Shown here piece after piece: positions 6,242 through 41,494 of a stretch of 54,888 bases of DNA. Within the stretch, counting starts at the first letter, position 1. The number at the start of each line of letters is the position of its first letter. The stretch covers positions 1 to 54,888 of the IMG/VR virus record IMGVR_UViG_3300020472_000033. One strand, given 5' to 3'. The stretch is from a virus. Taxonomy: Duplodnaviria; Caudoviricetes. The notes below the pieces were generated by a model. That model did not search any database, was not told where the DNA came from, and worked only from the letters and a program-made list of their open reading frames with translations. The position numbers and the translations under genes were made by a program.

Positions 6242-6319
6242 TGTAGGGTGGCGGAATTGGTAGACGCATCAGGCTGTTTCCCTGTAATATTGTAGGTTCA
6301 AGTCCTACCCCTACAGCCA
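6242..6319 (+). tRNA. tRNA-Asn(GTT), atypical
   Basis: Acceptor TGTAGGG/CCCTACA + G + CCA; D arm GCG..CGC; anticodon loop CTGTTTC; T arm GTAGG-TTCAAGT-CCTAC; T tract follows. Confidence 0.85.
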
Positions 6320-6370
6320 ACTTTTTTTAACTATCCTTTATTATCAAAGACTTACACGTTACGATTTTGC

Positions 6371-6399
6371 TTGACAATTCATCTTCCATATGATAGCTT
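6371..6399 (+). promoter_or_regulatory. sigma70-type early promoter
   Basis: TTGACA-17-TAGCTT with TGn; ATG at 6406 suggests a leaderless mRNA. Confidence 0.65.
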
Positions 6400-9910: not shown

Positions 9911-10166
9911 CTGTACCTTTGTATCTTGGCCTGTGTCAGCATTAACTACAGCAGTAGATGTTGGATTAACTGTAGAAACTGGTAAGAGTACATCAGAACA
10001 CGTTGCATCTGTAGCAACTAAAATGGATTGTCAATGGAGTCGGTTGTTTAGTGATTGGAAAATATGCCTAACTCATGAAGAATATGTTGACAATTTAATG
10101 ATTATGAATTGTCAAATCTATTCGTGGGATTTCCTAAATAAGCCATATTGTAAGGAGAATGGATAA
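9846..10166 (+). CDS. Putative Cys-rich lipoprotein
   Basis: Signal peptide with LSNC lipobox-like motif; TGKSTSEH..S...MDC. Confidence 0.55.
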   Translation: MTNISQLQTFFIALVLSVVLSNCTFVSWPVSALTTAVDVGLTVETGKSTSEHVASVATKMDCQWSRLFSDWKICLTHEEYVDNLMIMNCQIYSWDFLNKPYCKENG

Positions 10167-11284
10167 TGCCTGCAAGGAAACATACCCAGTGGTTAGCTAA
10201 ACCTTCTGTAGATTACGTAGACTCACGCATTTATAGTGATTGGGATATTCACTATGAAGAACAGGAAAAGATTTTTAAGAAGGTTTGGATACCTATCTGT
10301 CATGAATCAGAATTGCCTAATCATCTAGACTTTCGTACCTCAAGTATTGCTGGTGAAAGAATCATTATGATTCGTGATACCGATAATGTTATTGCAATGA
10401 AGCATGATTTTACTGAAATGCCTCCATCTGGCGATTTACGTTTGGCTGGTGGATACGAACATTGGGATACTGAAAAACTTTATTGTGAAGTTAAGTATGG
10501 TGGCATGGTATGGGTAACACTTGACCCAAATCCTACAATGGATGTAGAACAGTGGGCTGCTGGTGCATTTGATTGTATTCAAGCTGCATTGGATACAGAA
10601 CCACTAGAGGTATTTCATTATCATAAGGGTATCATAGGAAGTAACTATAAACTATGGCATGATACGAATAGTGAATTTTATCATGATTTTATGCATTACT
10701 TTAATAGAGTCACAGGATTTAACGAGGAATATTTTGCACGTAAAAACACTGGATTTCCTAATGGTCACGTAAATGTAGGAAGTTTTGAGGTACAGTATGA
10801 TAAGTTTGACGGTGCAGATAGAGGAGCATTAAGTTTTCCTACACTACCACCTAATCAGTGGTACATGGTAGACCTATTTCCTGGCATGAATATAAATTTA
10901 CGTGGAAGTGCATTGCGTACAGATATTGTCACACCTCTTGCACCTAACAAAGTGATGATTGAGTTTCGTGGATTTGGTCTAAAGAAGGATACACCAGAAG
11001 AACGAGCAGAACGGATTAAACACCATAACACAATATGGGGCCCTTTTGGTCGCAATCTACATGAAGACTTGATTGGTATTGCTGGACAAGGTACTGCTAT
11101 GGCCCCTGGCACTGAATACCGTCACGTACTACACGGTAGAAAAGAAAACGATACGATCCACGATGAAGTGGGCATGAGGCATTACTATGAAGAATGGGGT
11201 ACTTGGATGGGCCGTGATCCATCTAATCCCATGAGAGAAAATGCCGTTTGGGAGAATAAAGAAGATGCACACGTACAGATGTAA
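10166..11284 (+). CDS. Ring-hydroxylating dioxygenase alpha-subunit homolog lacking Rieske ligands
   Basis: IYSD..EQEKIFKKVWIPICHESELP, NYKL..D...EFYHDFMH, EDL; no CxH/CxxH. Confidence 0.85.
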   Translation: MPARKHTQWLAKPSVDYVDSRIYSDWDIHYEEQEKIFKKVWIPICHESELPNHLDFRTSSIAGERIIMIRDTDNVIAMKHDFTEMPPSGDLRLAGGYEHWDTEKLYCEVKYGGMVWVTLDPNPTMDVEQWAAGAFDCIQAALDTEPLEVFHYHKGIIGSNYKLWHDTNSEFYHDFMHYFNRVTGFNEEYFARKNTGFPNGHVNVGSFEVQYDKFDGADRGALSFPTLPPNQWYMVDLFPGMNINLRGSALRTDIVTPLAPNKVMIEFRGFGLKKDTPEERAERIKHHNTIWGPFGRNLHEDLIGIAGQGTAMAPGTEYRHVLHGRKENDTIHDEVGMRHYYEEWGTWMGRDPSNPMRENAVWENKEDAHVQM

Positions 11285-11699
11285 AATTTTAAGAGTTGTA
11301 GATGGTGATACAGTTGATGTAGATATAGACCTTGGATTTGGGGTTTGGATGCATAAAGAAAGAGTCCGTATTCACGGCATAGATACACCAGAATCACGTA
11401 CCAGAGATTTAGAAGAAAAGAAATATGGGTTGGCTGCAAAGGCCTTTGTTAAGTCATATCTTCCCATTGGTTCAGCACAAACACTTTGTACAGAGAAGGA
11501 CAAAACAGGTAAGTTCGGCCGTATACTAGGCAAATTCCTTGTGTATGACGCAAAAACGGACAGCCAGATACACCTTGGTAATATAATGATACGAGAACAC
11601 CATGCTGTGCCTTATTCTGGACAATCAAAAGAAGAAATAGAAGAATTACACATAGAGAATAGAAAATTTGTAAATAGTGAATATTTAAAGGAGATATAG
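11265..11699 (+). CDS. Thermonuclease (SNase) family nuclease
   Basis: RVVDGDTVD..IDLGF, RVRIHGIDTPESRT, GKFGRILG. Confidence 0.9.
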   Translation: MHTYRCKILRVVDGDTVDVDIDLGFGVWMHKERVRIHGIDTPESRTRDLEEKKYGLAAKAFVKSYLPIGSAQTLCTEKDKTGKFGRILGKFLVYDAKTDSQIHLGNIMIREHHAVPYSGQSKEEIEELHIENRKFVNSEYLKEI

Positions 11700-11706
11700 A
11701 TAAAAA

Positions 11707-12732
11707 ATGATTATATGTGATGATGTTAAACTAGATTATTCTGACGTTTTAATTCGGCCCAAGAGGTCTACCATTACATCACGATTTGATGTAGATATGA
11801 ATAGAACCTACCAGTTTTATCATAGTAAAAAAGAATGGACAGGCATCCCTATTATGGCAAGTAATATGGATACTGTAGGCACATTTGAAATGCATACAGC
11901 ATTAAGTGAATATGATATGATAACTTGTATCGCAAGACACTATAATTTTGATATGGATAATTGGTGGAAGTTCCCCCACGATAAAATGGGCCTTATGAAC
12001 ACGTTATGTGTTATGGGTGGAATATCAAAAGAAGAACTAAAAGTAATTCCCCAAATTTATAACAATATTAGACCATCATTTATTGGACTTGATGTTGCCA
12101 ATGGATATACTATTAGCTTTGTAGATGCAGTAAAAGAGATGAGGGAAAAATGTCCAGATGCAACTATAGTTGCTGGTAATGTAGTTACTGCTGATATGAC
12201 TTCTGAATTAATACTTGCTGGTGCAGATATTGTCAAGGTAGGAGTAGGGCCTGGCTCTGTATGTACTACAAGAATTAAAACTGGAATAGGTTATCCACAG
12301 TTAAGTGCAGTAATAGAATGTGCTGATGCAGCTCATGGTTTAGGTGGCCATATCATTGCTGATGGTGGTTGCAATTCTTCTGGAGATATTGTTAAGGCAT
12401 TTGCTGGTGGTGCAGACTTTGTGATGATAGGTGGTATGCTAGCAGGCCATGATGAATGTGATGGAGAAGTTGTTGATGGTAAGATGGAATTTTATGGAAT
12501 GGCATCTGAATCTGCAATGGATAGGCATAATGTACCTCATAGGGAATACCGTGGGGTAGAAGGTAAAACTGTATCTGTTCCTTATCGTGGTGCTGTTAAG
12601 GATACTGTAATTGATATACTAAGTGGTATTCGGTCTGCTTGTACGTATGTTGGTGCAACAAAACTAAAATACCTATCAAAATGTACTACATTTGTGAGAG
12701 TTAATAGCACACATAATAGAGTATATGAATAA
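11707..12732 (+). CDS. guaC: GMP reductase
   Basis: [38 protein letters not shown]; no CBS domains. Confidence 0.92.
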
Positions 12733-12917
12733 TGATGATGATACTTGTCACTCTATGGTTAAATGGTATAAGTATAACCTTAGATGCCAAGGCAATGTAT
12801 GGTGTTATTAATTTAGAACATTGTAATAATGAACTGTCGTATATAATAGAGGACTTTGGTGCTGAAAGGGGTGAATGTACTCTTGGGGATATATTGGAAC
12901 AAAACATAAAAATATAA
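12732..12917 (+). CDS. Small exported two-Cys protein
   Basis: Hydrophobic N-terminus, C-x17-C; TAATG coupling. Confidence 0.55.
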   Translation: MMMILVTLWLNGISITLDAKAMYGVINLEHCNNELSYIIEDFGAERGECTLGDILEQNIKI

Positions 12918-12924
12918 AAGAGAC

Positions 12925-12953
12925 TTGACTTTTCAGAGTCATCTTGATATTAT
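12925..12953 (+). promoter_or_regulatory. sigma70-type promoter
   Basis: TTGACT-17-TATTAT with TGn. Confidence 0.7.
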
Positions 12954-12980
12954 GGTAGTATTATTATAAAAGGAGTGAAT

Positions 12981-13097
12981 ATGAAAAAAACATTTGAAAA
13001 GAGATTCGGTGAAGGAACTGCATGGGATTTAGACTATGGCAAATTGCTAATGATTGGACTCTTAGTTTATATTGCCTTTTTCAAGGATTTTACATGA
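12981..13097 (+). CDS. 38-aa single-TM peptide MKKTFEKRFGEGTAWDLDYGK...
   Basis: Manual translation; AAGGAG RBS. Confidence 0.65.
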   Translation: MKKTFEKRFGEGTAWDLDYGKLLMIGLLVYIAFFKDFT

Positions 13098-13098
13098 A

Positions 13099-13350
13099 AT
13101 GTACACAATATATACAACGGAAAACTGTGTCTATTGTAAAGAATCAAAAAATTTATTGGTTGAACACAATAAAGAATATCTGGAAGTGAAATTGGATAAC
13201 CAAGAAAAAATAACTGATTTCAAAAAGAATACAGGTTTTACAACTGTTCCACAAATATATCATGCTTCTGGTGACCATATAGGTGGCCATGAACAATTAC
13301 GTGACCACTTGAATAGACTATATTCACCAGTGGCTGACCCTCTTGAATAG
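13099..13350 (+). CDS. Glutaredoxin (NrdC-like)
   Basis: CVYC active site, TVPQI, HIGG. Confidence 0.9.
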   Translation: MYTIYTTENCVYCKESKNLLVEHNKEYLEVKLDNQEKITDFKKNTGFTTVPQIYHASGDHIGGHEQLRDHLNRLYSPVADPLE

Positions 13351-13590
13351 ATGACGTATTCCACAGAAAGATTATTCCATTTTTCGTGCCAGACTTGCCG
13401 TAATTGGTGGAGTATAGCACATACAGATGAATGGAAACCAAAATCACTCTTCTGTCCACATTGTGGCCAAGTACACAAATATAATGTACTAGGTGAGCTG
13501 ACTAATCCAGAAGATTCTGCTGAACAGATGGGTAAACTAATATATGGTGCTGGCATAGGAGGCCAATTATTTGACGAAGAAATTGAATAG
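13351..13590 (+). CDS. Zinc-ribbon protein
   Basis: CQTC...CPHCG. Confidence 0.7.
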   Translation: MTYSTERLFHFSCQTCRNWWSIAHTDEWKPKSLFCPHCGQVHKYNVLGELTNPEDSAEQMGKLIYGAGIGGQLFDEEIE

Positions 13591-13855
13591 AACAAATAGT
13601 TGGGGGAAGAAAATGAATAGAGAACACTACCATACCTATTATGGTGATGATGAATATCAAAACAGATTAGCATTTGTATATAAAAATGGTTCTAATTTTG
13701 AGGTTGATTTATATGATGCTAATCAAGGTGAACGGACAACAGGTTTACCACCAGAAAAATTATATAAGACACTTGATTTAAGTGGACATTCAGAACAATA
13801 TGCTGAAGATGCTGCTGAGAATTGGGTGCTGGGTATTATAGAAAGGGAAGATTGA
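13571..13855 (+). CDS. Hypothetical protein (probable start 13613)
   Basis: HSEQYAEDAAENWVLG motif familiar from T4-like phages. Confidence 0.7.
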   Translation: MTKKLNRTNSWGKKMNREHYHTYYGDDEYQNRLAFVYKNGSNFEVDLYDANQGERTTGLPPEKLYKTLDLSGHSEQYAEDAAENWVLGIIERED

Positions 13856-14805
13856 AACGTATTTTGATAACAGGTGGCCTTGGCTTGATAGGTCACCAAC
13901 TATCCAGACAATTAGGAAAACTAGGTCATAAAGTAATAATTGTTGATACAAAAGAAACATATGGTGTAATACCACTAAATGAACTAGGGTATTTGATGAG
14001 TGAAAGAAGTAAATTGATTCCTCTAGATGCCGTAGTGTTGAATACAGATATATCAGACAGCCATTTAACAAATTTATTCAGTTTATATAAACCAGAAATA
14101 GTCATACATCTAGCAAGTTTTCCAAGACAAAAGGTTGTTAATGCCAATCCACAATTAGGTGCAAAAGTAATGATGCAAGGTATGCTGAACATACTGGAGG
14201 CATCAGTACAATATGGTGTTGAAAAAGTGGTATATACCAGCTCCAGTATGATATATGGTGATTGGAAAGGAACAATAAAAGAAGACCATCCCAAAAACCC
14301 CATTGGCCAGTATGCTATTATGAAATTATGTGGAGAATATCTATTACAGGATTATCATCGTAAATACAACTTGAATTACACCATTTATCGTCCAAGTGCT
14401 GTATATGGGCCTCTTGATGTTGAAGATAGAGTAATATCCAAATTTCTGTTACAGGCCATAAGAGGAAATGTACTCAAAGTCAACGGTAGAAAAGAAACAC
14501 TTGATTTCACCTATGTTGATGACTTGGTTGATGGACTAGTGGCAGGAGTATTATCTGATAGAACAAATAACCAGATATATAACATAACAAAGAGTCACAG
14601 TAAAACCCTACTAGAGGCCGCAAAACTTGCTGTTAAATTGGCAGGGAATGGCACTATAGAAATTGCTGAAAAGGATGAAGATTATCCAAGTAGAGGGGCT
14701 CTTGATATAACAAAGGCTAGATATGATTTCGGATTTAGACCCAAGATAGACATAGACGAAGGGTTTGAAATTTATTATAAATGGCTTAAGGAGAAATATA
14801 TATGA
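13852..14805 (+). CDS. NAD-dependent NDP-sugar epimerase/dehydratase (extended SDR), TTG start
   Basis: ILITGGLGLIG, YTSSS.IYG, YAIMK (YxxxK), DFTYVDD. Confidence 0.92.
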   Translation: MKRILITGGLGLIGHQLSRQLGKLGHKVIIVDTKETYGVIPLNELGYLMSERSKLIPLDAVVLNTDISDSHLTNLFSLYKPEIVIHLASFPRQKVVNANPQLGAKVMMQGMLNILEASVQYGVEKVVYTSSSMIYGDWKGTIKEDHPKNPIGQYAIMKLCGEYLLQDYHRKYNLNYTIYRPSAVYGPLDVEDRVISKFLLQAIRGNVLKVNGRKETLDFTYVDDLVDGLVAGVLSDRTNNQIYNITKSHSKTLLEAAKLAVKLAGNGTIEIAEKDEDYPSRGALDITKARYDFGFRPKIDIDEGFEIYYKWLKEKYI

Positions 14806-15119
14806 ACTGTTGGCACTGTAATACAGAGTTGATTTGGGGTGGTGACCAAGACCTAACATCCGAAGAAAATGAATATGAACCAGCCGAAGAATTTGATATG
14901 ATTACAAATCTATCTTGTCCAAAGTGTGAGTCATACGTAGAGGTATATCATAAATTTAGGCCAGGTGCCAAATACGTATATCATAAATTTAATCAAGATA
15001 TCAAGAATAAACATGAAAAACTTGATAATTTTGAAAAACTTGAAAAACGTATGAGTAAGATACGAGAACAACTAGATTTATATGAACGAGATAAATCAGA
15101 GAAATTTCGCCGATCATGA
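14802..15119 (+). CDS. Zinc-finger hypothetical protein
   Basis: MNCWHC..LIWGGD...LSCPKC. Confidence 0.75.
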   Translation: MNCWHCNTELIWGGDQDLTSEENEYEPAEEFDMITNLSCPKCESYVEVYHKFRPGAKYVYHKFNQDIKNKHEKLDNFEKLEKRMSKIREQLDLYERDKSEKFRRS

Positions 15120-15706
15120 ACACTATTACAATTCAAGACAATTTCATAGATGATAAACATTATGAAGAATTAACAAGCCTTCACATAGAATATAATAAGG
15201 TACATTGGATAGGAGCTCTGGCAAAACCTCAAAATGCACTACATAAACTAGTCTTGAAAACAAGGCCTGATATACCATCTGCCACAGACAAGTTGAAACC
15301 ACCATATTCATATACAGGTGCCACAGCTTGGTATAATATTCGTCCAATACATCCACAGTGGCATAATGATATTGATTCATATTGTACTAAGAACGGAATT
15401 ACGTATACACCACAAGACAAGCCACCATATACTTACCTATACTATGTAAAAGAACCAAGTAAAGGGGGTGAATTACAACTTGAAACAGGAGACTTGATAA
15501 TACCCAAGCTGAATAGACTTGTTTATTTTCCATGCTCTCTTATTCATAGGGTACGTATGTATACTGGAAACAGGGTATCAATAGGTATTATATGGTGGTT
15601 TGATATACCTTCCGAGCTATATGGAGTGCTAGGGGAGAAAGAAACCAAAGTACTTGATAGATTATGGGAAATAGAGGATGAGCGGAAGATCATTAAAAAG
15701 GGTTAA
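15116..15706 (+). CDS. 2OG-Fe(II) oxygenase
   Basis: WHND (HxD), GGEL, PKLNRLVYF, IHRV, RVS. Confidence 0.85.
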   Translation: MNTITIQDNFIDDKHYEELTSLHIEYNKVHWIGALAKPQNALHKLVLKTRPDIPSATDKLKPPYSYTGATAWYNIRPIHPQWHNDIDSYCTKNGITYTPQDKPPYTYLYYVKEPSKGGELQLETGDLIIPKLNRLVYFPCSLIHRVRMYTGNRVSIGIIWWFDIPSELYGVLGEKETKVLDRLWEIEDERKIIKKG

Positions 15707-15719
15707 AAAAACATATAGT

Positions 15720-15993
15720 TGTTGTGTTTAAAGTCCTCAGCCTCACAGGAAAATCTCAGGACATACAGGGAAATTATTAGGGGTACAGGTACGCATAGCA
15801 CCCCATAGCAGTCCATATACACACACTTGATACCATAGCACACCACTTGATACAGAGAGAGGCCCTGTGCCATGGCTACAGTACAGTGCCAGGGAGGGAT
15901 ACCGAAATCAATTTAGTGGCTTGAGTATCCTCATGCACTACAGTGTTATAAGCCAGCACACGGCCGGCCACTATCACGAATCACTCAGCTGAT
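15720..15993 (-). ncRNA. Candidate non-coding transcript (leftward)
   Basis: Perfect promoter upstream, no credible ORF, GC-rich with repeats; 3' end unknown. Confidence 0.4.
15794..15853 (+). repeat. Short iterated repeats
   Basis: CATAGCA at 15794, 15804, 15834; CACTTGATAC at 15824, 15844 (CACTTGATA again at 16185). Confidence 0.7.
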
Positions 15994-15999
15994 CTTATT

Positions 16000-16028
16000 A
16001 TTATACCATACTATCACCCCCTTGTCAA
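16000..16028 (-). promoter_or_regulatory. Perfect-consensus sigma70 promoter on minus strand
   Basis: Reverse complement reads TTGACA-17-TATAAT with TGn. Confidence 0.88.
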
Positions 16029-16061
16029 GCTAAATTAATTAAAAAAAATGTAATAAAGTGC

Positions 16062-16090
16062 TTGACATACCCTTGACTCTGTGGTACTAT
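16062..16090 (+). promoter_or_regulatory. sigma70 promoter, divergent from 16000-16028
   Basis: TTGACA-17-TACTAT with TGn; AT-rich spacer between the two promoters. Confidence 0.85.
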
Positions 16091-16096
16091 GTGTAT

Positions 16097-16313
16097 GCTG
16101 AGAGATTAAAGAACAGCTAAGAGAACTACTGGAGTCATATGACTAGGGTTGAGAGCCACTGCAAGTTCTCTCTTTGTATGTGGGCACTTGATATCTTGAA
16201 AAAGCCTTTATGTGGTGGGGGGTATAGGGGGGTGTCCAAATCCTTTAGTTAGGATCCACCAATCTATAAATGCAATAAGTATCCAGAGAAAAATACCCCT
16301 ACCCCCCTTTTTT
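16097..16313 (+). ncRNA. Candidate ~215-nt structured RNA / primer RNA
   Basis: AGAGAACT/AGTTCTCT stem, AGTCATATGACT palindrome, G6-TATA-G6 pairing with C4-TA-C6 then T6. Confidence 0.5.
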
Positions 16314-16315
16314 GC

Positions 16316-16344
16316 TTGACATGGGATCCCATCTGTGTTATAGT
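16316..16344 (+). promoter_or_regulatory. sigma70 promoter with palindromic spacer
   Basis: TTGACA-17-TATAGT; ATGGGATCCCAT palindrome at 16321-16332. Confidence 0.85.
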
Positions 16345-16367
16345 GTGATCATAATGGAGAGAAATTT

Positions 16368-16592
16368 ATGAAAATATTAAAAGATATTAAAGAGATTGTT
16401 TTTTCTGATGGGGATATGCCTGTATCAGAATTTGTTGTTATGGCATCTGCTGCTGGGTGGTATGTCGGTAAGGTCTGTAAGGATCCAGATTGTGGGGGAA
16501 TGGTTGTACCTTATGATAGGTATACAGGCTATTATGCTTCCTCAGAGGAAGCTTGTGAGGCCTTAGATAGTTTTTATTATGCAGATATGTAA
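16368..16592 (+). CDS. Hypothetical early protein
   Basis: SAAGWYVG...PYDRYTGYY motif; GGAGAG RBS. Confidence 0.8.
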   Translation: MKILKDIKEIVFSDGDMPVSEFVVMASAAGWYVGKVCKDPDCGGMVVPYDRYTGYYASSEEACEALDSFYYADM

Positions 16593-16619
16593 TTATTTTC
16601 AATAAAATGCATTTTTTGC

Positions 16620-16648
16620 TTGACAAATCCTTTTAGTTTTGGTATTAT
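16620..16648 (+). promoter_or_regulatory. sigma70 promoter
   Basis: TTGACA-17-TATTAT with TGn. Confidence 0.85.
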
Positions 16649-16654
16649 TAGTTA

Positions 16655-17093
16655 TAGTCAGAAACAACGTGAGAGAGAGAAAAATATGATGTAGCAATAA
16701 CGTAAATGCCGTAAACGCCGTGAGTAGGTTCTCCCAATATGAATTGAAAACTATGTGGCATCGGAGGGGGATATTGGGTGTTCCTAGAGAATCATATTTC
16801 TGGTCTAGGGGCAAGGCAAGAGGGACGCAGCTCGCCACTGTACCGACTTTCGGAGTTCGGAGTAATACAGACCAACAAGGCCCAGAATGATTTTGTGAGT
16901 ATCATCTAGAAAACTCTCCACTGTATGCTCTAGTGAAGCTGAGATACTAACCCTGTCGCTGTCGGATGACCCATTAAGGAATACGGAGCGATTCAGAGTT
17001 GGGTGCCGAGAGAGAGAAGCATTAAGGTTGGTTGGACTCCAGTAAAGTTCCCAAATGTGGGTGGAGTTGGTAGTGTTGCTTCTCTCTCTTTTT
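16655..17093 (+). ncRNA. Candidate ~440-nt highly structured RNA of unrecognised family
   Basis: Own promoter, many helices, closing 13-bp stem + T tract, no ATG-initiated ORF at the RBS beyond ATG-ATG-TAG. Confidence 0.65.
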
Positions 17094-17117
17094 ATATATA
17101 ATATATAGGGGAATGTT

Positions 17118-17360
17118 ATGGTTACGGATGAGGAAATGAAAGAGTTTGGTAGAGAACTAGCAAAGCTCTGCTTCAAAAATGACCATCTAGATAATGAAAA
17201 AGCTATGATGATGGGTGCTATGCTCATGAAAACAGCTATGGAATTGTATGTTAGAATGCTGAAAGATGAAGATATTAATAATCTTTTGGATGTTGTAGCG
17301 GAAAGTCTTCCTAATATACGGTATATAACGGAAACTGAAATTGATAGAACGATTCATTAA
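17118..17360 (+). CDS. Hypothetical protein
   Basis: ORF with AGGGG RBS. Confidence 0.7.
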   Translation: MVTDEEMKEFGRELAKLCFKNDHLDNEKAMMMGAMLMKTAMELYVRMLKDEDINNLLDVVAESLPNIRYITETEIDRTIH

Positions 17361-17641
17361 TGGAGAATGTTATGAAAGTAGGTAGTGAAGTAGAGTATAA
17401 TACTGGCGATCGGCGAAAATCGGGCGAAGTGCTGGGTGTATACTCTGATAATTTTGATGAAGTGAAGGTAGATAGTGGTAAGTATCTTGGCCAAGAGGTT
17501 AAAGATATTCTGGTCTATTGGTCTAAGAAAACGAAATCTTGGAGGCCTGTAAAGGAAAAGGATATGGGTTCTATATTCTTTGAGATTAAGGGAAAGGGAA
17601 AAGATCCGATTGATTACGTATTGATTGAAGAATTGGTATGA
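17360..17641 (+). CDS. Hypothetical protein
   Basis: Coupled ORF. Confidence 0.7.
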   Translation: MENVMKVGSEVEYNTGDRRKSGEVLGVYSDNFDEVKVDSGKYLGQEVKDILVYWSKKTKSWRPVKEKDMGSIFFEIKGKGKDPIDYVLIEELV

Positions 17642-17886
17642 CTGAAGAGTATGAACAAACCGTACCAATGATACCACCAAATGTAACAGAAGTGGATCCA
17701 GAAGATTGGTATTTCTTTATTGAGTGGATAAAGCCTTCTCAATATAATGCATATCTACGAAAGGGATATGAACACGCAAAGATGGCATTTTTGGAGAAAG
17801 AAACCCAATGGGCTACCGTAAGACGTAAATTAGAAAAAGAAATGTTGTTCAAAAACATTGCTCAAGAGGTCACAACTACTAAATAA
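17638..17886 (+). CDS. Hypothetical protein
   Basis: ATGA overlap. Confidence 0.65.
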   Translation: MTEEYEQTVPMIPPNVTEVDPEDWYFFIEWIKPSQYNAYLRKGYEHAKMAFLEKETQWATVRRKLEKEMLFKNIAQEVTTTK

Positions 17887-17891
17887 ACCCT

Positions 17892-18083
17892 ATGAGTACT
17901 GATACAATAGTATATAGAGTAGTCAAAACACATAAAGAAGTGATATACGATGCCATTCCTTCCTATGAGGAAGCTTTTGTGGCAATGCAACAGGCAGAGG
18001 ATACTTCTGAACTTAGTATTGAACAATACAAGAAACCTTTATTTAAAGGAATACTAGGCAGAGATCCAGACCTACATCAGTAG
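17892..18083 (+). CDS. Hypothetical protein
   Basis: ORF ending LGRDPDLH; CTAAATA late-like motif upstream. Confidence 0.65.
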   Translation: MSTDTIVYRVVKTHKEVIYDAIPSYEEAFVAMQQAEDTSELSIEQYKKPLFKGILGRDPDLHQ

Positions 18084-18119
18084 TTCCTTATAAATATTCC
18101 GTAAGGAGTTTATAAGGAA
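18084..18119 (+). promoter_or_regulatory. Late promoter embedded in RBS-sequestering hairpin
   Basis: TTCCTTATAAA...TTTATAAGGAA arms; TATAAATA at 18089-18096. Confidence 0.8.
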
Positions 18120-18121
18120 AG

Positions 18122-19567
18122 ATGCTAGAAGAAAAAAGCAACTACATGGGCCATGATGGTTTCATATGGTTTGTAGGTGTTGTTGAAGATAGAAATGATC
18201 CAGAACGTGTAGGCAGAGTACGTGTAAGATGTTTAGGCCATCATACGGATGACTTAAATGAGATTGCAACGGATGACCTTCCTTGGGCTCACGTTATGCA
18301 TCCTGTTACTGATCCATCAATGCATGGATTAGGACATACCCCTTCCTTTCTTGTTGAAGGTTCTTGGGTTATTGGTTTCTTTAGGGATGCTGATGAAAAA
18401 CAACAACCAGTTATTTTAGGTTCTTTGCCTGGCTCTCCAGCATTTTCTGCTGATTGCAAGAAAGGGTTTAATGATCCTAGAAGTCCATTCTCCACACAAG
18501 ATGAATATACAGGAAAACCAGTATACGGGCCTTATCCAGTAGGGGCTGTAATTGATGATGAAGGTAATGAAAACACTATGTCTTCTGGTCATGTTACAGG
18601 TGAGCCTGATACGAATAGATTAGCAAGAGGTCAATCTTCCGAAACCCATAACTCTTTAGTAAATCGTAGAAAAGATAAAGTCACTAAGATTCCTATTGCG
18701 ACAAAACCCCATCTTCCTACAGTAGAATTAAATTCCACAGCTGAAACTCGTTCCACTTGGGATGAACTGGATCCAAAATCCATATTATCTACTGCTGACC
18801 CATATGTTTCAGCACAATATCCTTTTAACCACGTTCATGAAAGTGAATCTGGTCATATTAAGGAAATAGATGACACGCCTGGCGGAGAAAGATTATTTAC
18901 GCAACATAGTTCTGGAACTTTTGAGGAAATTCACCCAAAAGGTGACAAGATGGTTAAAGTTGTAGGTGATAACTATGAGATTATTGCTGGCTTCTCTAAT
19001 GTTCTTATTAAAGGTGATGTTAATATGACTGTAGAAGGTGATATGAGACAGTTGGTGAAAGGTGATTATGTTTTGGAGGTAGAAAAAGACTATACACTTA
19101 AAGTTGGTCAGAACCAAAGAACCAAAATCGGATATAAAGATGCTGGAGGGAACAGGGAAGAAGAAATTAAAGGAAATATTTCTACTAATGTCAATAGTGA
19201 CCACTTTACACGTATAGGTGGTTGGAAGAAGTGTACAGTTGGTACGCATAATGTTTTGATTGTTAATGATTATAGCAAAATGTCTATAGGTAAGAAGCTC
19301 TCAATAGCATCTTTAGGTAGTGATGTTAATATAACTGCAAAAAACAATATGACAATTACAACACTGTCTGGTATTTCCTCGTTCAAGTCTGGAAATAAAC
19401 TTAATATTAAATCAGCTGACCAAATGGTTATTCATACTGAAGCAACTGGATTAAACATTACTTCTGCTGGAGCAGTATTAGAAACATTTGGTGCTGGTCA
19501 AGATACAAATATTACAGGTACTTGGACTTGTGATACTACAGGTAATATAGAACTTAATAATAGTTAG
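18122..19567 (+). CDS. gp5: Baseplate hub spike (gp5-like; OB-fold + beta-helix, no lysozyme domain evident)
   Basis: WFVGVVEDRNDPERVGRVRVRCLGHH, LPWA, YPFNHVHESESGHIKEIDDTPG, VxGD repeats. Confidence 0.93.
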   Translation: MLEEKSNYMGHDGFIWFVGVVEDRNDPERVGRVRVRCLGHHTDDLNEIATDDLPWAHVMHPVTDPSMHGLGHTPSFLVEGSWVIGFFRDADEKQQPVILGSLPGSPAFSADCKKGFNDPRSPFSTQDEYTGKPVYGPYPVGAVIDDEGNENTMSSGHVTGEPDTNRLARGQSSETHNSLVNRRKDKVTKIPIATKPHLPTVELNSTAETRSTWDELDPKSILSTADPYVSAQYPFNHVHESESGHIKEIDDTPGGERLFTQHSSGTFEEIHPKGDKMVKVVGDNYEIIAGFSNVLIKGDVNMTVEGDMRQLVKGDYVLEVEKDYTLKVGQNQRTKIGYKDAGGNREEEIKGNISTNVNSDHFTRIGGWKKCTVGTHNVLIVNDYSKMSIGKKLSIASLGSDVNITAKNNMTITTLSGISSFKSGNKLNIKSADQMVIHTEATGLNITSAGAVLETFGAGQDTNITGTWTCDTTGNIELNNS

Positions 19568-19575
19568 GAAAAATA

Positions 19576-19863
19576 ATGCCAGGAGTACATTTACACGGTT
19601 ATACAAGGGTTTGTTCTGCAACAACCATAGCATCTGCAAAAAGAGTATATTCGGATGGTGGTAGATTGTGGGCAATAAATGGTGATGTAAATTCTCATGG
19701 TGCTGGTAATTTGATTGCTGGTAGTCGTAGAGTTTTCTCTAATGGTCAAGCGATTGTTAATCATACACCAGATGGTAGTGCGGCTGATTCTCTATGTCCA
19801 GCTCCACTACATTGTGCCCCAATTACATCCCAAGGGTTTGCTAAAGTTATTGTGGGAGATTAA
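19576..19863 (+). CDS. PAAR-like spike tip (gp5.4-like)
   Basis: 95 aa after gp5; Cys/His pattern, ends KVIVGD. Confidence 0.75.
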   Translation: MPGVHLHGYTRVCSATTIASAKRVYSDGGRLWAINGDVNSHGAGNLIAGSRRVFSNGQAIVNHTPDGSAADSLCPAPLHCAPITSQGFAKVIVGD

Positions 19864-40121: not shown

Positions 40122-41494
40122 TGGCAAAACCACCATTATGTTATTATCCTTTTTTTGGTCTTTCTGATGATACTAAGGGATATTGGCAAGCTTGTTGTCA
40201 AGCAAAACCTTTTGAAAATAAAGACGGCAATCAAAAATATAATATTAAAAATATGTCTTTTTTTGAATTTTTTAATTCTAAAGAAATGAAACAACTAAGA
40301 TATGATATGGTTATGATGAATGAATCTTCTGAATTATATCAAAAAACTTGCAAAAATTGTATTGATGAAGAAAAGATGGGTGTTTTATCAATGCGAAGGC
40401 AAATAACAGACGCTCCATTTAAAAGGGGCCCAATGCAAGTAAATTATGACCAAGGATTATTTAGGCATAATTTACTTGAAGATATAAAACAAAATCCAAA
40501 TAATAATTTACTGCCTACAGATGTTAAATATTTAAAATTACATTTTTTTGGAAATTTGTGTAATTTAAAATGTATAAGTTGTCAACCTATGAGTTCTTCA
40601 AAAATTGCAGCTGAACATATAAAATGGAAAAATGGTGGTCAATGGCCAGATTGGGAAGAAGGGGGGAGTGTATTAAATAAAGAATTAAATTTACGTATGA
40701 TAGAAAGTGCTATTATTAATCCTTATAATAAATTAAATAAGAAAAAATTTTTTGATGAATTAGAAGAAAGTTTGCCTACTATAAAAATGTTAGATTTTGT
40801 TGGTGGAGAACCAATGTATAATAAACAAATAAAGGAGCTGTTAGAATGGATTGTTTCTAAAGAGTTATCTAAAGGGTTAATGATAAAATTTACAACAAAT
40901 GCTATGTATGAAGATTATGAATTATATAATTTATTAAAATATTTTAAAAGTACATCTGTAGATATTTCTCTAGATGGTGTAGGAAAGAAAGACGAATATT
41001 TAAGAACTGGTACTGTATGGAAAGAAAAAATAGAAATTATTGATAATATTTATCAAACATTTTCTCAAATATCTTGGAGTAATACTATACAACTTTGTAA
41101 TATTGGATATCTTGATGAAATGTGGAAATTTATAGAACAATGGAAAGAAAAATATCCTAGAAAAGGCGTCATATGGAAAGGAGAAGAATATGGTGTGGGC
41201 CCTTTAAATAATATATTAAGTTGGCCTCCTATATTACAAGGGGTAAATATTCCAAAAAAAGTAGCATATATGTATATTAAAAAGTATGAAGATAAAAAAT
41301 TTCCTAGAAAAACAGAATTTATTAATATGTTACAAAATGATAAAGAAAGAAATCATGACCTTTTTTTGCGAGGTATGGCTAGATATAAATTTTATGATAA
41401 AAAACGAGGTACTTGTTTATTAGACCAATGGCCAGAATTTACAGAGTGGTACAATGAAGATTTTAACAGCATTATGGGGAAACAAATATTCTGA
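40121..41494 (+). CDS. Radical SAM enzyme with N-terminal twitch-like domain
   Basis: N-terminal C..CC..CKNC; CNLKCISC; GGEP; SLDG. Confidence 0.9.
   Translation: MAKPPLCYYPFFGLSDDTKGYWQACCQAKPFENKDGNQKYNIKNMSFFEFFNSKEMKQLRYDMVMMNESSELYQKTCKNCIDEEKMGVLSMRRQITDAPFKRGPMQVNYDQGLFRHNLLEDIKQNPNNNLLPTDVKYLKLHFFGNLCNLKCISCQPMSSSKIAAEHIKWKNGGQWPDWEEGGSVLNKELNLRMIESAIINPYNKLNKKKFFDELEESLPTIKMLDFVGGEPMYNKQIKELLEWIVSKELSKGLMIKFTTNAMYEDYELYNLLKYFKSTSVDISLDGVGKKDEYLRTGTVWKEKIEIIDNIYQTFSQISWSNTIQLCNIGYLDEMWKFIEQWKEKYPRKGVIWKGEEYGVGPLNNILSWPPILQGVNIPKKVAYMYIKKYEDKKFPRKTEFINMLQNDKERNHDLFLRGMARYKFYDKKRGTCLLDQWPEFTEWYNEDFNSIMGKQIF

What the first reader, a model, noticed from the sequence alone, without database searches (positions are those of the whole stretch)
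16655..17093. ~440-nt orphan, highly structured RNA with its own promoter and terminator
Seen: a GC-rich gap in a gene-dense AT-rich genome, starting just after TTGACA-17-TATTAT. It carries many compatible helices: CCCAATAT 16733/ATATTGGG 16771; AATCA+TTCTGG 16790-16803/CCAGAA+TGATT 16882-16892 enclosing CTGTA-CCGA 16838/TCGG..TACAG 16857-16870; AGTATC 16898/GATACT 16943 enclosing CTAGA/TCTAG; TCGCT 16956/AGCGA 16987; and a perfect 13-bp stem 17009-17021/17077-17089 enclosing ACTCCA/TGGAGT, followed by T4. I could not match it to tmRNA, RNase P, group I/II intron or hammerhead signatures. Inference: a possibly undescribed large phage ncRNA (comparable in size class to ROOL/GOLLD/IMES RNAs).
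Basis: partly seen in the sequence, partly recalled or inferred. Interest (0 to 1): 0.85.

Follow-up and report, generated by a model that had tools for sequence, protein, structure and literature searches.

The report
Untranslated early-transcript cassette in marine T4-like phage
This GC-rich gap in a marine T4-like phage is truly non-coding and sits behind a typical early promoter, but apart from one long hairpin at its end it folds no better than scrambled sequence, so it looks like a long untranslated leader or cassette and not an ornate structured RNA.

Summary
The gap 16655-17097 is the GC peak of the window, and no reading frame in it looks coding. A consensus early promoter precedes it. 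That promoter is one of six GCTTGACA-N17-TAnnnT copies in the window, where 0.02 are expected by chance.

"Highly structured" is not supported. The whole RNA folds like its shuffles (z 0.02). The body 16655-16946 folds worse than shuffles (z +1.84). Only the 3' hairpin 17008-17090, followed by a short T run, beats chance (z -4.6).

There is no Rfam match and no match in GenBank phages, IMG/VR or prokaryote genomes.

The 5' end is the phage's standard early leader, with a GAGAGA ribosome site and then a two-codon ORF (ATG ATG TAG). A relative's contig has ATG GTG TGA at the same place.

A strain about 96.5% identical carries a different, perfect hairpin in place of 16953-16997. Contigs of marine DNA runs show further variants with 1-nt and 25-nt indels.

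Best reading (0.4): the non-coding cargo or long leader of a PeSL-type early cassette in a hyperplastic region, ending in a leaky terminator ahead of four small ORFs that have no recognisable promoter of their own. A trans-acting RNA remains possible. No covariation test could be run.

The parts
16612..16648 (+). Early promoter: T run, GCTTGACA (16618-16625), 17-nt spacer with TG, TATTAT (16643-16648). Start of transcription inferred near 16655.
   Evidence: 11 of 12 consensus positions. The 14-nt stretch TTTTTTGCTTGACA is identical to 16308-16321. It is one of 6 GCTTGACA-N17-TAnnnT sites in the window against 0.02 expected. Aligned with the other early promoters.
16671..16694 (+). Standard early-gene leader: GA-run ribosome site (16671-16681) and a two-codon ORF ATG ATG TAG (16686-16694).
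   Evidence: 13 of 15 identical to the ribosome site plus ATG of ORF 16368 (D5). Same layout behind promoters 7998, 7176 and 16314. A contig of run X5 has ATG GTG TGA directly before 16695 (table 7).
16695..16946 (+). GC-rich non-coding body, less self-complementary than its shuffles. It includes the 9-nt tandem CGTAAAYGC x2.3 (16701-16721) and the 7-nt tandem TTCGGAG x2.1 (16849-16863).
   Evidence: Period-3 signal 0.2-0.4 against a window median of 7.9. Stops of all three kinds in all six frames. No Pfam or PHROGs hit. z +1.84 for 16655-16946. Tandem repeats. Variant contigs with 1-nt deletions and base changes.
16947..17002 (+). Variable hairpin on a shared base CUAAC/GUUGG. It is imperfect in the window and is replaced by a perfect 13-bp hairpin in strain L030.
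   Evidence: Alignment. Folds: window version z -0.74, L030 version z -4.57 with two G.U pairs that are pairs only in the + strand RNA. The L030-type form is also seen in run X6 record 24. T16962>C in another variant turns a G.U pair into G-C.
17008..17093 (+). Long three-tier hairpin: a 13-14-bp GA/UC stem encloses ACTCCA/TGGAGT, which encloses CCCA/TGGG. It is followed by T4. Terminator- or attenuator-like.
   Evidence: Inverted repeat I4, 13 nt, 100% complementary. MFE -34.4, z -4.58 on the + strand. The T run follows only on the + strand. One change (17070 G>A, in a loop) against L030. Not listed by the consensus terminator scan because its 'loop' is 55 nt.
17118..18083 (+). Four small ORFs (80, 93, 82 and 63 aa) that follow the hairpin and have no early-family promoter of their own. 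Presumably reached by read-through.
   Evidence: ORF list. Substitutions against L030 fall mostly at third codon positions in the first three. No GCTTGACA-type promoter between 16648 and 18083. Only 10-of-12 sites inside ORFs at 17372 and 17720.
18089..18096 (+). T4-type late promoter TATAAATA ahead of the gp5 gene (18122-19567). It marks the end of the early block.
   Evidence: gp5 domains.

Best explanation
The region is the non-coding cargo, or long 5' leader, of an early-promoter cassette of the PeSL kind, inside a hyperplastic region of a marine T4-like myovirus. Host sigma-70 RNA polymerase starts near 16655 from one of the phage's stereotyped early promoters. The transcript begins like any early mRNA of this phage, with a GAGAGA ribosome site and an ATG, but translation stops after two codons. 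About 400 nt of GC-rich, untranslated RNA with little self-structure follow. The unit ends in a variable hairpin and a long stable hairpin with a short U run. I infer that this end works as a partial terminator or attenuator (perhaps also a processing or stability hairpin). It would limit and time read-through into the four small early ORFs 17118-18083, which lack a promoter of their own, and keep early transcription from running on into the late gp5 gene block.

Shown here: the region is non-coding; the promoter belongs to a family; the leader and mini-ORF follow the standard layout; the 3' hairpin is stable; cassette-type variation exists between strains. Inferred: transcription from this promoter; partial termination; a role in cis.
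For: Non-coding: lowest period-3 signal of the window; mixed stops in all six frames; no Pfam, PHROGs or protein homologues. Natural variants carry 1-nt deletions (16737, 16967) and a net 25-nt replacement.

Promoter family: 6 sites against 0.02 expected, 4 of them within 16000-16650, each followed by a GA-rich ribosome site and an ATG.

Mini-ORF: kept as ATG-codon-stop in a relative whose leader otherwise differs.

3' hairpin: z -4.58, with the U run only on the + strand.

Downstream ORFs: no early-family promoter, and they behave as genes, with third-position bias against L030.

Hyperplastic context: relatives' regions upstream of gp5 are densely coding and lack this block. There is a hairpin swap, a 27-nt in-frame deletion and a replaced segment against L030. 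A contig of X5 joins 15735 to 16251.

PeSL cassettes (strong sigma-70 promoter, AT-rich upstream part, stem-loop terminator/attenuator, SD plus ATG at the 3' end, clustered in hyperplastic regions) are described in PMC2839356 and PMC4122927. I read passages of both by term search.

An RNA-library contig (X17, 17047-17309) spans from inside the hairpin into ORF 17118. This shows presence only; it does not prove transcription.
Against: A 400-nt GC-rich leader has no obvious need, since other early units of this phage have leaders of about 25-40 nt. GC of 0.49 in a 0.34 genome suggests either selection on the RNA or a foreign origin, and a mere spacer explains neither. Parts of the body recur with few changes in several other contigs whose flanks differ, which also fits an independent functional RNA or a mobile unit. 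Against L030-type strains the element shows 1 change in 124 nt (L030 itself), or in 256 nt if X6 record 24 is added. Third codon positions nearby show 37 of 752 (P 0.014 and 3.5e-5 respectively). This may mean constraint, or recent exchange of the cassette. Termination efficiency, strand, transcript ends and read-through were not measured.
Confidence: 0.4

Rival explanations
1. An independent, trans-acting early non-coding RNA of about 435 nt, made by termination at the 3' hairpin. It would act through accessible single-stranded sequence (base pairing with, or binding of, a host or phage factor) and not through an ornate fold. The two-codon ORF would load a ribosome that protects its 5' end.
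For: It has its own strong promoter and a hairpin plus U run specific to the + strand. The body is less folded than its shuffles. Parts are shared by several other contigs with different flanks. There are fewer changes than at nearby third codon positions. The mini-ORF is kept in a relative. Pieces lie in contigs of RNA libraries of two studies: X17 at 16906-17056 and X19 at 16808-17010.
Against: No target or partner is known. blastn of the element against the window gives only chance-level short matches. GGA-type motifs are not enriched by my own count, which was not a tool result. The downstream ORFs would then lack a promoter. RNA-library contigs cannot show transcription, strand or ends.
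Confidence: 0.22
2. Non-functional passenger DNA: a remnant of foreign, GC-richer sequence captured between two early cassettes and spread among related phages by recent recombination.
For: It lies in a hyperplastic region with cassette-type indels. It is absent from all 94 gp5-linked loci of more distant relatives. It is absent from IMG/VR and GenBank phages. High identity between strains can result from recent exchange. The fold is not better than chance.
Against: There is no trace of codon periodicity or protein similarity that a decayed gene would leave. GC-rich neutral DNA should decay towards the 34% GC of the genome. The stop of the mini-ORF is kept through two changes (TAG to TGA). The replaced hairpin is again a hairpin.
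Confidence: 0.2
3. A DNA- or R-loop-level element. A strong early promoter would drive an untranslated, G-over-C, weakly folded transcript that stays hybridised to its template and primes origin-dependent replication. This would resemble T4 origin transcripts or ColE1 RNA II, a comparison I recall from memory and did not test.
For: Translation is stopped after two codons. The RNA is G-rich and C-poor (G 121, C 80 of 443) and less self-folded than its shuffles. It lies beside a cluster of four strong, partly divergent promoters and short tandem repeats.
Against: GC skew and purine content are not higher than in neighbouring genes. There is no turn in cumulative GC skew. No iteron array exists beyond 2.3 copies. 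No origin protein gene was recognised nearby.
Confidence: 0.1
4. A new large, ornately structured RNA of the ROOL/GOLLD size class.
For: It is the GC peak in an AT-rich genome and is ORF-free. It has no Rfam match and so would be new. One hairpin is replaced by another hairpin in a sister strain. Three of four changes at paired places of that hairpin in another variant keep pairing (one search read). By my own hand count (taking 1 in 3 random changes to keep a pair) P is about 0.11, which is not significant.
Against: z is 0.02 for the whole and +1.84 for the body, and all the listed helices except the last are at chance level. A16736>T would break the 8-bp helix with no compensating change seen. 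There is no multi-sequence covariation evidence.
Confidence: 0.06

Closest known systems
PeSL (promoter-early stem-loop) cassettes of T4-like phages (Arbiol et al. 2010, PMC2839356; Comeau et al. 2014, PMC4122927)
   Same: Near-consensus sigma-70 promoters with an AT/T-rich upstream part, repeated almost identically. They are followed by an SD and an ATG, are associated with stem-loops that act as terminators or attenuators, cluster in a hyperplastic region next to the virion genes, and are associated with indels and replacements between close strains.
   Different: PeSL cargo is normally an ORFan. Here the cassette's ATG is followed by a stop after two codons and 400 nt of GC-rich non-coding sequence. 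The strong stem-loop lies about 360-440 nt downstream of the promoter and not within it. Recombination or mini-circle formation was not tested.
Long untranslated leaders with a terminator/attenuator ahead of the first gene (general bacterial and phage attenuation; delayed-early read-through in T4, recalled)
   Same: The order is promoter, long untranslated RNA, stable hairpin plus U run, then genes without their own promoter. The 5' GA run (16672-16681) can pair with the 3' arm of the terminator as an alternative to the local stem (I12).
   Different: No ligand- or factor-binding fold is recognisable. There is no match to any Rfam cis-regulatory family. The alternative pairing is low-complexity and untested.
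Start-stop / minimal ORFs (Meydan et al., bioRxiv 10.1101/520783; passages read)
   Same: An SD-like sequence and a start codon are followed almost at once by a stop. No useful peptide can result, so a regulatory or ribosome-parking role is suspected.
   Different: Here one sense codon lies between start and stop, so this is not a strict start-stop. It heads a non-coding RNA and is not nested in a gene. Ribosome occupancy is unknown.
ROOL, GOLLD and other large ornate RNAs often carried by phages (Nature 2025, PMC12286853; only the search listing and the start of the abstract seen)
   Same: Size class of a few hundred nt, phage-borne, non-coding, GC-richer than its surroundings.
   Different: No covariance-model match. 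Fold energy is not better than shuffles. No covariation evidence. Not next to the window's tRNA gene.

Membership tests
Known Rfam families, including the large ornate RNAs (ROOL, GOLLD, OLE, HEARO, raiA, IMES etc.) | Match to the family covariance model at or above its gathering score | tested here: not met
   Whole window at gathering: only a tRNA at 6242-6316. 16500-17250 at E<=10: 3 matches, all far under gathering. 15600-16700 at E<=1: none.
Large ornate structured RNA (as a kind) | Secondary structure more stable than composition-matched shuffles over most of its length | tested here: not met
   z 0.02 for the whole, +1.84 for the body, -0.13 to +2.56 in 8 inner windows. Only the 3' hairpin stands out at z -4.58.
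Large ornate structured RNA (as a kind) | Helices supported by compensatory changes across homologues | tested here: inconclusive
   Only one partial homologous locus (L030, covering 16929 onward) and variant letters from contigs were available. There is one hairpin swap, one G.U to G-C change, and one pair-breaking change in another helix. No alignment deep enough for a covariation test could be made.
PeSL cassette (PMC2839356) | Strong sigma-70-like early promoter with an AT-rich upstream part, repeated in near-identical copies | tested here: met
   11 of 12 with TG. 14-nt identity with the copy at 16308. 6 copies against 0.02 expected.
PeSL cassette (PMC2839356) | Shine-Dalgarno sequence and start codon at the 3' end of the cassette | tested here: met
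   The GAGAGA run plus ATG at 16686 aligns with the same parts of cassettes 7176, 7998 and 16314.
PeSL cassette (PMC2839356) | Stable stem-loop within or beside the promoter, acting as terminator/attenuator | tested here: inconclusive
   Beside P16620 I read only the short palindrome AAAATGCATTTT (about 16605-16616) in the letters; no tool scored it. The neighbouring cassette has a poly-G/poly-C stem at 16218-16307 before P16316. The strong hairpin of this unit is at its far end, 17008-17090. Activity was not measured.
PeSL cassette (PMC2839356) | Lies in a hyperplastic region and is associated with indels between close relatives | tested here: met
   The block is absent upstream of gp5 in relatives. 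Hairpin replacement, 27-nt deletion and replaced segment against L030. A joint 15735-16251 in a contig of X5.
PeSL cassette (PMC2839356) | Cargo is a small protein-coding ORFan | tested here: not met
   A two-codon ORF, then no frame, no periodicity and no homologue.
Intrinsic (Rho-independent) terminator | G+C-containing stem directly followed by a U run | tested here: met
   A 13-bp perfect stem (14 with G.U), then T17090-17093. The T run is on the + strand only.
Intrinsic (Rho-independent) terminator | Short loop (3-8 nt) and a U run of 5 or more | tested here: not met
   A 55-nt insert that folds on itself. The consensus scan (loop 3-8, at least 5 T of 8) does not list it.
Start-stop minimal ORF (10.1101/520783) | [quoted passage not shown] | tested here: not met
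   The SD-like run and ATG are present, but one sense codon (ATG; GTG in a relative) lies before the stop.
Protein-coding gene, including one under another genetic code | Open frame, codon periodicity, homologues, indels in multiples of three | tested here: not met
   (all three stop kinds in every frame). Searches found no homologue. Natural 1-nt and 25-nt indels.

The most novel reading that the evidence does not exclude
A new family of about 400-nt early phage RNAs that are ribosome-capped by a conserved two-codon ORF, otherwise untranslated and deliberately unfolded. They would move as cassettes among marine T4-like phages and act in trans on a host or defence factor, or prime replication through an R-loop. 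This would be a functional long RNA whose hallmark is accessibility and not an ornate fold.
Probability: 0.2. Interest if true: 0.7.

Novelty: new variant of a known kind. Interest (0 to 1): 0.4.

Why it matters
If the reading holds, the promoter-terminator cassettes that shuffle ORFans in T4-like phages can also carry non-coding cargo. A GC peak in an AT-rich phage would then not by itself be a sign of an ornate RNA, which is a useful caution for scans based on GC-rich intergenic regions. The conserved two-codon ORF at the head of a long untranslated RNA, and the hairpin-for-hairpin replacement between strains, are concrete and testable hints of RNA-level selection in an uncultured marine myovirus lineage. 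If the RNA acts in trans it would be a new kind of early phage RNA.

Tried and rejected
Homologue hunts that found nothing:
- blastn (distant mode) of 16600-17110 against 50,697 phage records: no match.
- nhmmer and blastn against 28 IMG/VR loci around gp5 relatives: nothing.
- The same against all 95 loci then held: only L030 matched.
- Whole records behind 5 IMG/VR loci: only a 15-nt chance match.
- Four exact 19-20-nt motifs of the element in IMG/VR: 0 hits each.
- Two motifs in 185,579 species genomes: 0 hits each.
- Neighbouring ORFs 17118 (80 aa) and 15116 (196 aa) as queries in IMG/VR: no relatives.
- The spurious frames used as a fuzzy index in IMG/VR and in the 5.8-billion-protein set: none. 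Only proteins of near length were searched.
- tblastn of the 140-aa minus-strand frame against phages: none.

Other negative results:
- Rfam on 11 relatives' loci: nothing.
- No second copy of the element in the window.
- The 3' arm motif occurs once in the window.

Ideas considered and dropped:
- Alternative genetic code.
- DGR template or retron: no reverse transcriptase and no matching repeat were seen in the window. The retron reading rests on my own inspection.
- CsrB-like GGA sponge: about 10 GGA where about 9.5 are expected, by my hand count.
- A MotA-type middle promoter overlapping the 3' arm (TGCTTCT-N13-TATAAT). I read this and recalled the consensus; it is untested.

Tools that did not serve:
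- The metagenome records behind L030, L033, L034, L079 and L088 are not held.

Coverage gaps in the laid runs: parts of the stretch carry no contig in X17 and X19. I draw nothing from this. The summed contig depth over the element is higher than over its flanks in X6, but the tool states that depth cannot rank parts, so I use only the counts of variant contigs.

Full report
**Context.** The window is a 54,888-nt IMG/VR virus record that CheckV estimates to be 33% complete. It belongs to a T4-like myovirus. It encodes gp5 (18122-19567) and gp6-like baseplate proteins and uses T4-type late promoters, with TATAAATA directly ahead of gp5 and of other structural genes. Its closest cultured relatives share only about 31-38% of gp5; they include a Pelagibacter phage, Methylophilales phages, Vibrio phages and Pseudomonas phages.

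**Checking the observation.**
- The + strand has no ORF of 60 aa or more between 16593 and 17117.
- The gap contains the highest 300-nt GC peak of the window: 0.49 against a mean of 0.336 with sd 0.044. The second peak, 15731-16030, is also ORF-free.
- Rfam gives nothing at gathering thresholds except tRNA-Asn far away. At E<=10 it gives only three junk matches.

The claim that the helices add up to a highly structured RNA fails.
- The whole 443-nt + strand folds at -121.7 kcal/mol. Dinucleotide shuffles fold at -121.8 +/- 6.1, so z is 0.02.
- The body 16655-16946 folds worse than 193 of 200 shuffles, z +1.84.
- Eight 120-nt windows inside the body give z from -0.13 to +2.56.
- Only the last element, 17006-17096, is exceptional: z -4.58 on the + strand, and 0 of 200 shuffles are as good. 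Its 13-bp perfect inverted repeat is one of two in the window, against 0.26 expected.

**It is non-coding.**
- Its period-3 signal is the lowest of all 441-nt windows tested: 0.14-0.4 against a median of 7.9, with GC flat over the three phases.
- All six frames hold stops, of two or three kinds each, so recoding any one stop codon opens no frame.
- The stop-free stretches match nothing in Pfam or PHROGs, in phage genomes by tblastn, or in the large protein collection.
- Natural variants carry 1-nt deletions and a net 25-nt replacement. A gene would not tolerate these.

**The 5' end is a standard early cassette.** GCTTGACA-N17-TAnnnT occurs six times in the window against 0.02 expected, and four copies lie within 16000-16650. 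Aligned, these promoters are followed after 10-25 nt by a GA-rich ribosome site and an ATG. The candidate has the same layout: a GAGAGAGAGAA run, 13 of 15 identical to the ribosome site of the neighbouring ORF 16368. Here, however, the ATG at 16686 is followed by ATG TAG. In a contig of DNA run X5 the sequence before 16695 differs, yet it reads ATG GTG TGA at the same position. So the start, one codon and a stop are kept through three transitions, two of them inside the stop codon.

This layout matches the promoter-early stem-loop (PeSL) cassettes described for T4-like phages. Those have strong sigma-70 promoters, an AT-rich upstream part, a stem-loop terminator/attenuator and an SD plus ATG at the 3' end. 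They cluster in hyperplastic regions and mediate indels (PMC2839356 and PMC4122927; passages read by term search). The difference is that the cargo here is not an ORFan.

**The 3' end.** Two hairpins precede a T4 run.
- The distal one (17008-17090) is a three-tier hairpin. It is more stable as + strand RNA (-34.4 kcal/mol) than as its complement (-29.1 kcal/mol), and only the + strand has the following U run. The consensus terminator scan does not list it because its 'loop' is 55 nt.
- The proximal one (16947-17002) is imperfect in the window, z -0.74.

**Relatives.** Upstream of gp5, more distant relatives are densely coding and lack this block. None of their loci matches the element.

One metagenome contig, L030, is a sister strain about 96.5% identical in the flanking genes, but it ends at window position 16929.
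- In L030, 16953-16997 is replaced by a different sequence. On the same CUAAC/GUUGG base this forms a perfect 13-bp hairpin, z -4.57. It contains two G.U pairs, which are pairs only in the + strand RNA.
- The remaining 124 aligned nt show one change (17070, in a loop). Third codon positions nearby show 37 of 752 changes, giving binomial P of 0.014.

Laying Logan contigs of four public runs on 15000-18500 gave the following.
- The L030-type hairpin appears in X6 (record 24, 16797-17025), with no other change.
- A further variant in X6 (one contig) has changes at 16944, 16949-16951 and 16962 and a 1-nt deletion at 16967. It then runs on into unlike sequence in the place of the 5' arm of the long stem.
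- At 16736, X6 has 5 contigs with another letter: 4 with T and 1 with G. They hold 43.1 of 64.7 summed depth. X5 has 2 such contigs.
- So parts of the element exist in several sequence forms in marine samples, some joined to different flanks.

Read against the folds, these changes are mixed. T16962>C turns a G.U pair into G-C. Two of the three changes at 16949-16951 keep pairing as G.U, and one breaks it. This is far too little for a covariation test.

Pieces of the element also lie in contigs of RNA libraries of two studies: X17 at 16427-16688, 16906-17056 and 17047-17309, and X19 at 16808-17010. Contigs cannot show transcription, strand or ends.

**What it most likely is.** The four small ORFs 17118-18083 behave as genes; the first three show third-position-biased changes against L030. 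They have no promoter of the early family. The consensus scan finds only 10-of-12 sites, inside ORFs. gp5 has its own late promoter. The simplest model is therefore a single early transcription unit made of five parts:
1. Promoter 16620.
2. The standard leader with a ribosome-loading two-codon ORF.
3. About 400 nt of untranslated GC-rich RNA.
4. A hairpin attenuator.
5. The delayed small ORFs.

I give this 0.4.

**Rivals.**
- An independent trans-acting RNA that works through accessible sequence: 0.22.
- Passenger DNA spread by recent cassette exchange: 0.2.
- An R-loop or origin element: 0.1.

High GC, the kept mini-ORF, the hairpin-for-hairpin swap and the low divergence all hint at selection on the RNA. 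Recent recombination could mimic the last of these.

**Limits.** Supplementary files of the PeSL papers, which hold the promoter and terminator assay figures, were not seen.

Noticed in passing
window 15707-16030 (- strand): A second ORF-free GC-rich island: GC 0.473, the second-highest peak of the window. It lies downstream of a perfect 12-of-12 sigma-70 promoter on the minus strand (16028-16000). It carries short repeats (CATAGCA x3; a 20-nt unit x2 at 15813-15853), has no Rfam match, and folds with z -0.55. A contig of run X5 joins 15735 directly to 16251, so a form without this 515-bp block may exist.
   Followed up: partly
window 16218-16344: A poly-G / poly-C stem (GGGGGGTATAGGGGGG ... 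CCCCTACCCCCC) with a T run lies immediately before the early promoter at 16316. This is the classic PeSL arrangement of terminator then promoter (sequence).
   Followed up: partly
window 16062-16252: The early promoter at 16062-16090 faces away from the minus-strand promoter, back to back, across an AT-rich spacer. It drives a 37-aa ORF (16139-16252) that contains a terminator-like site at 16151-16170, whose 3' arm and tail resemble those of the 17077-17095 hairpin (D7).
   Followed up: no
window 17473-17499 and 19440-19853 against L030: The sister strain L030 has a 27-nt in-frame deletion in ORF 17360-17641. It also has a replaced, unalignable segment at the C-terminal end of gp5 and the following spacer.
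   Followed up: no
window 6242-6399: tRNA-Asn (GTT) is followed within 50 nt by another copy of the early promoter family, at 6369-6399.
   Followed up: no
window 10166-15706: A run of auxiliary metabolic-type genes lies just upstream of the promoter island: a weak sub-threshold match to ring-hydroxylase alpha subunits (22.6 bits, cutoff 24.9), an IMPDH/GMP-reductase family protein, an NAD-dependent epimerase/dehydratase and a 2OG-Fe(II) oxygenase.
   Followed up: no
window 40436-40478: This is the only other perfect 13-bp inverted repeat with a spacer of 100 nt or less in the window (arms start at 40436 and 40466). An early-promoter-like GCTTGACA lies on the minus strand at 40196-40209.
   Followed up: no
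window 16127-16136 against 17035-17044: There is a 10-nt perfect complementarity between the transcript from promoter 16062 and the inner loop region of the 3' hairpin (I14). I judged it to be at chance level for a 1.6-kb region.
   Followed up: partly
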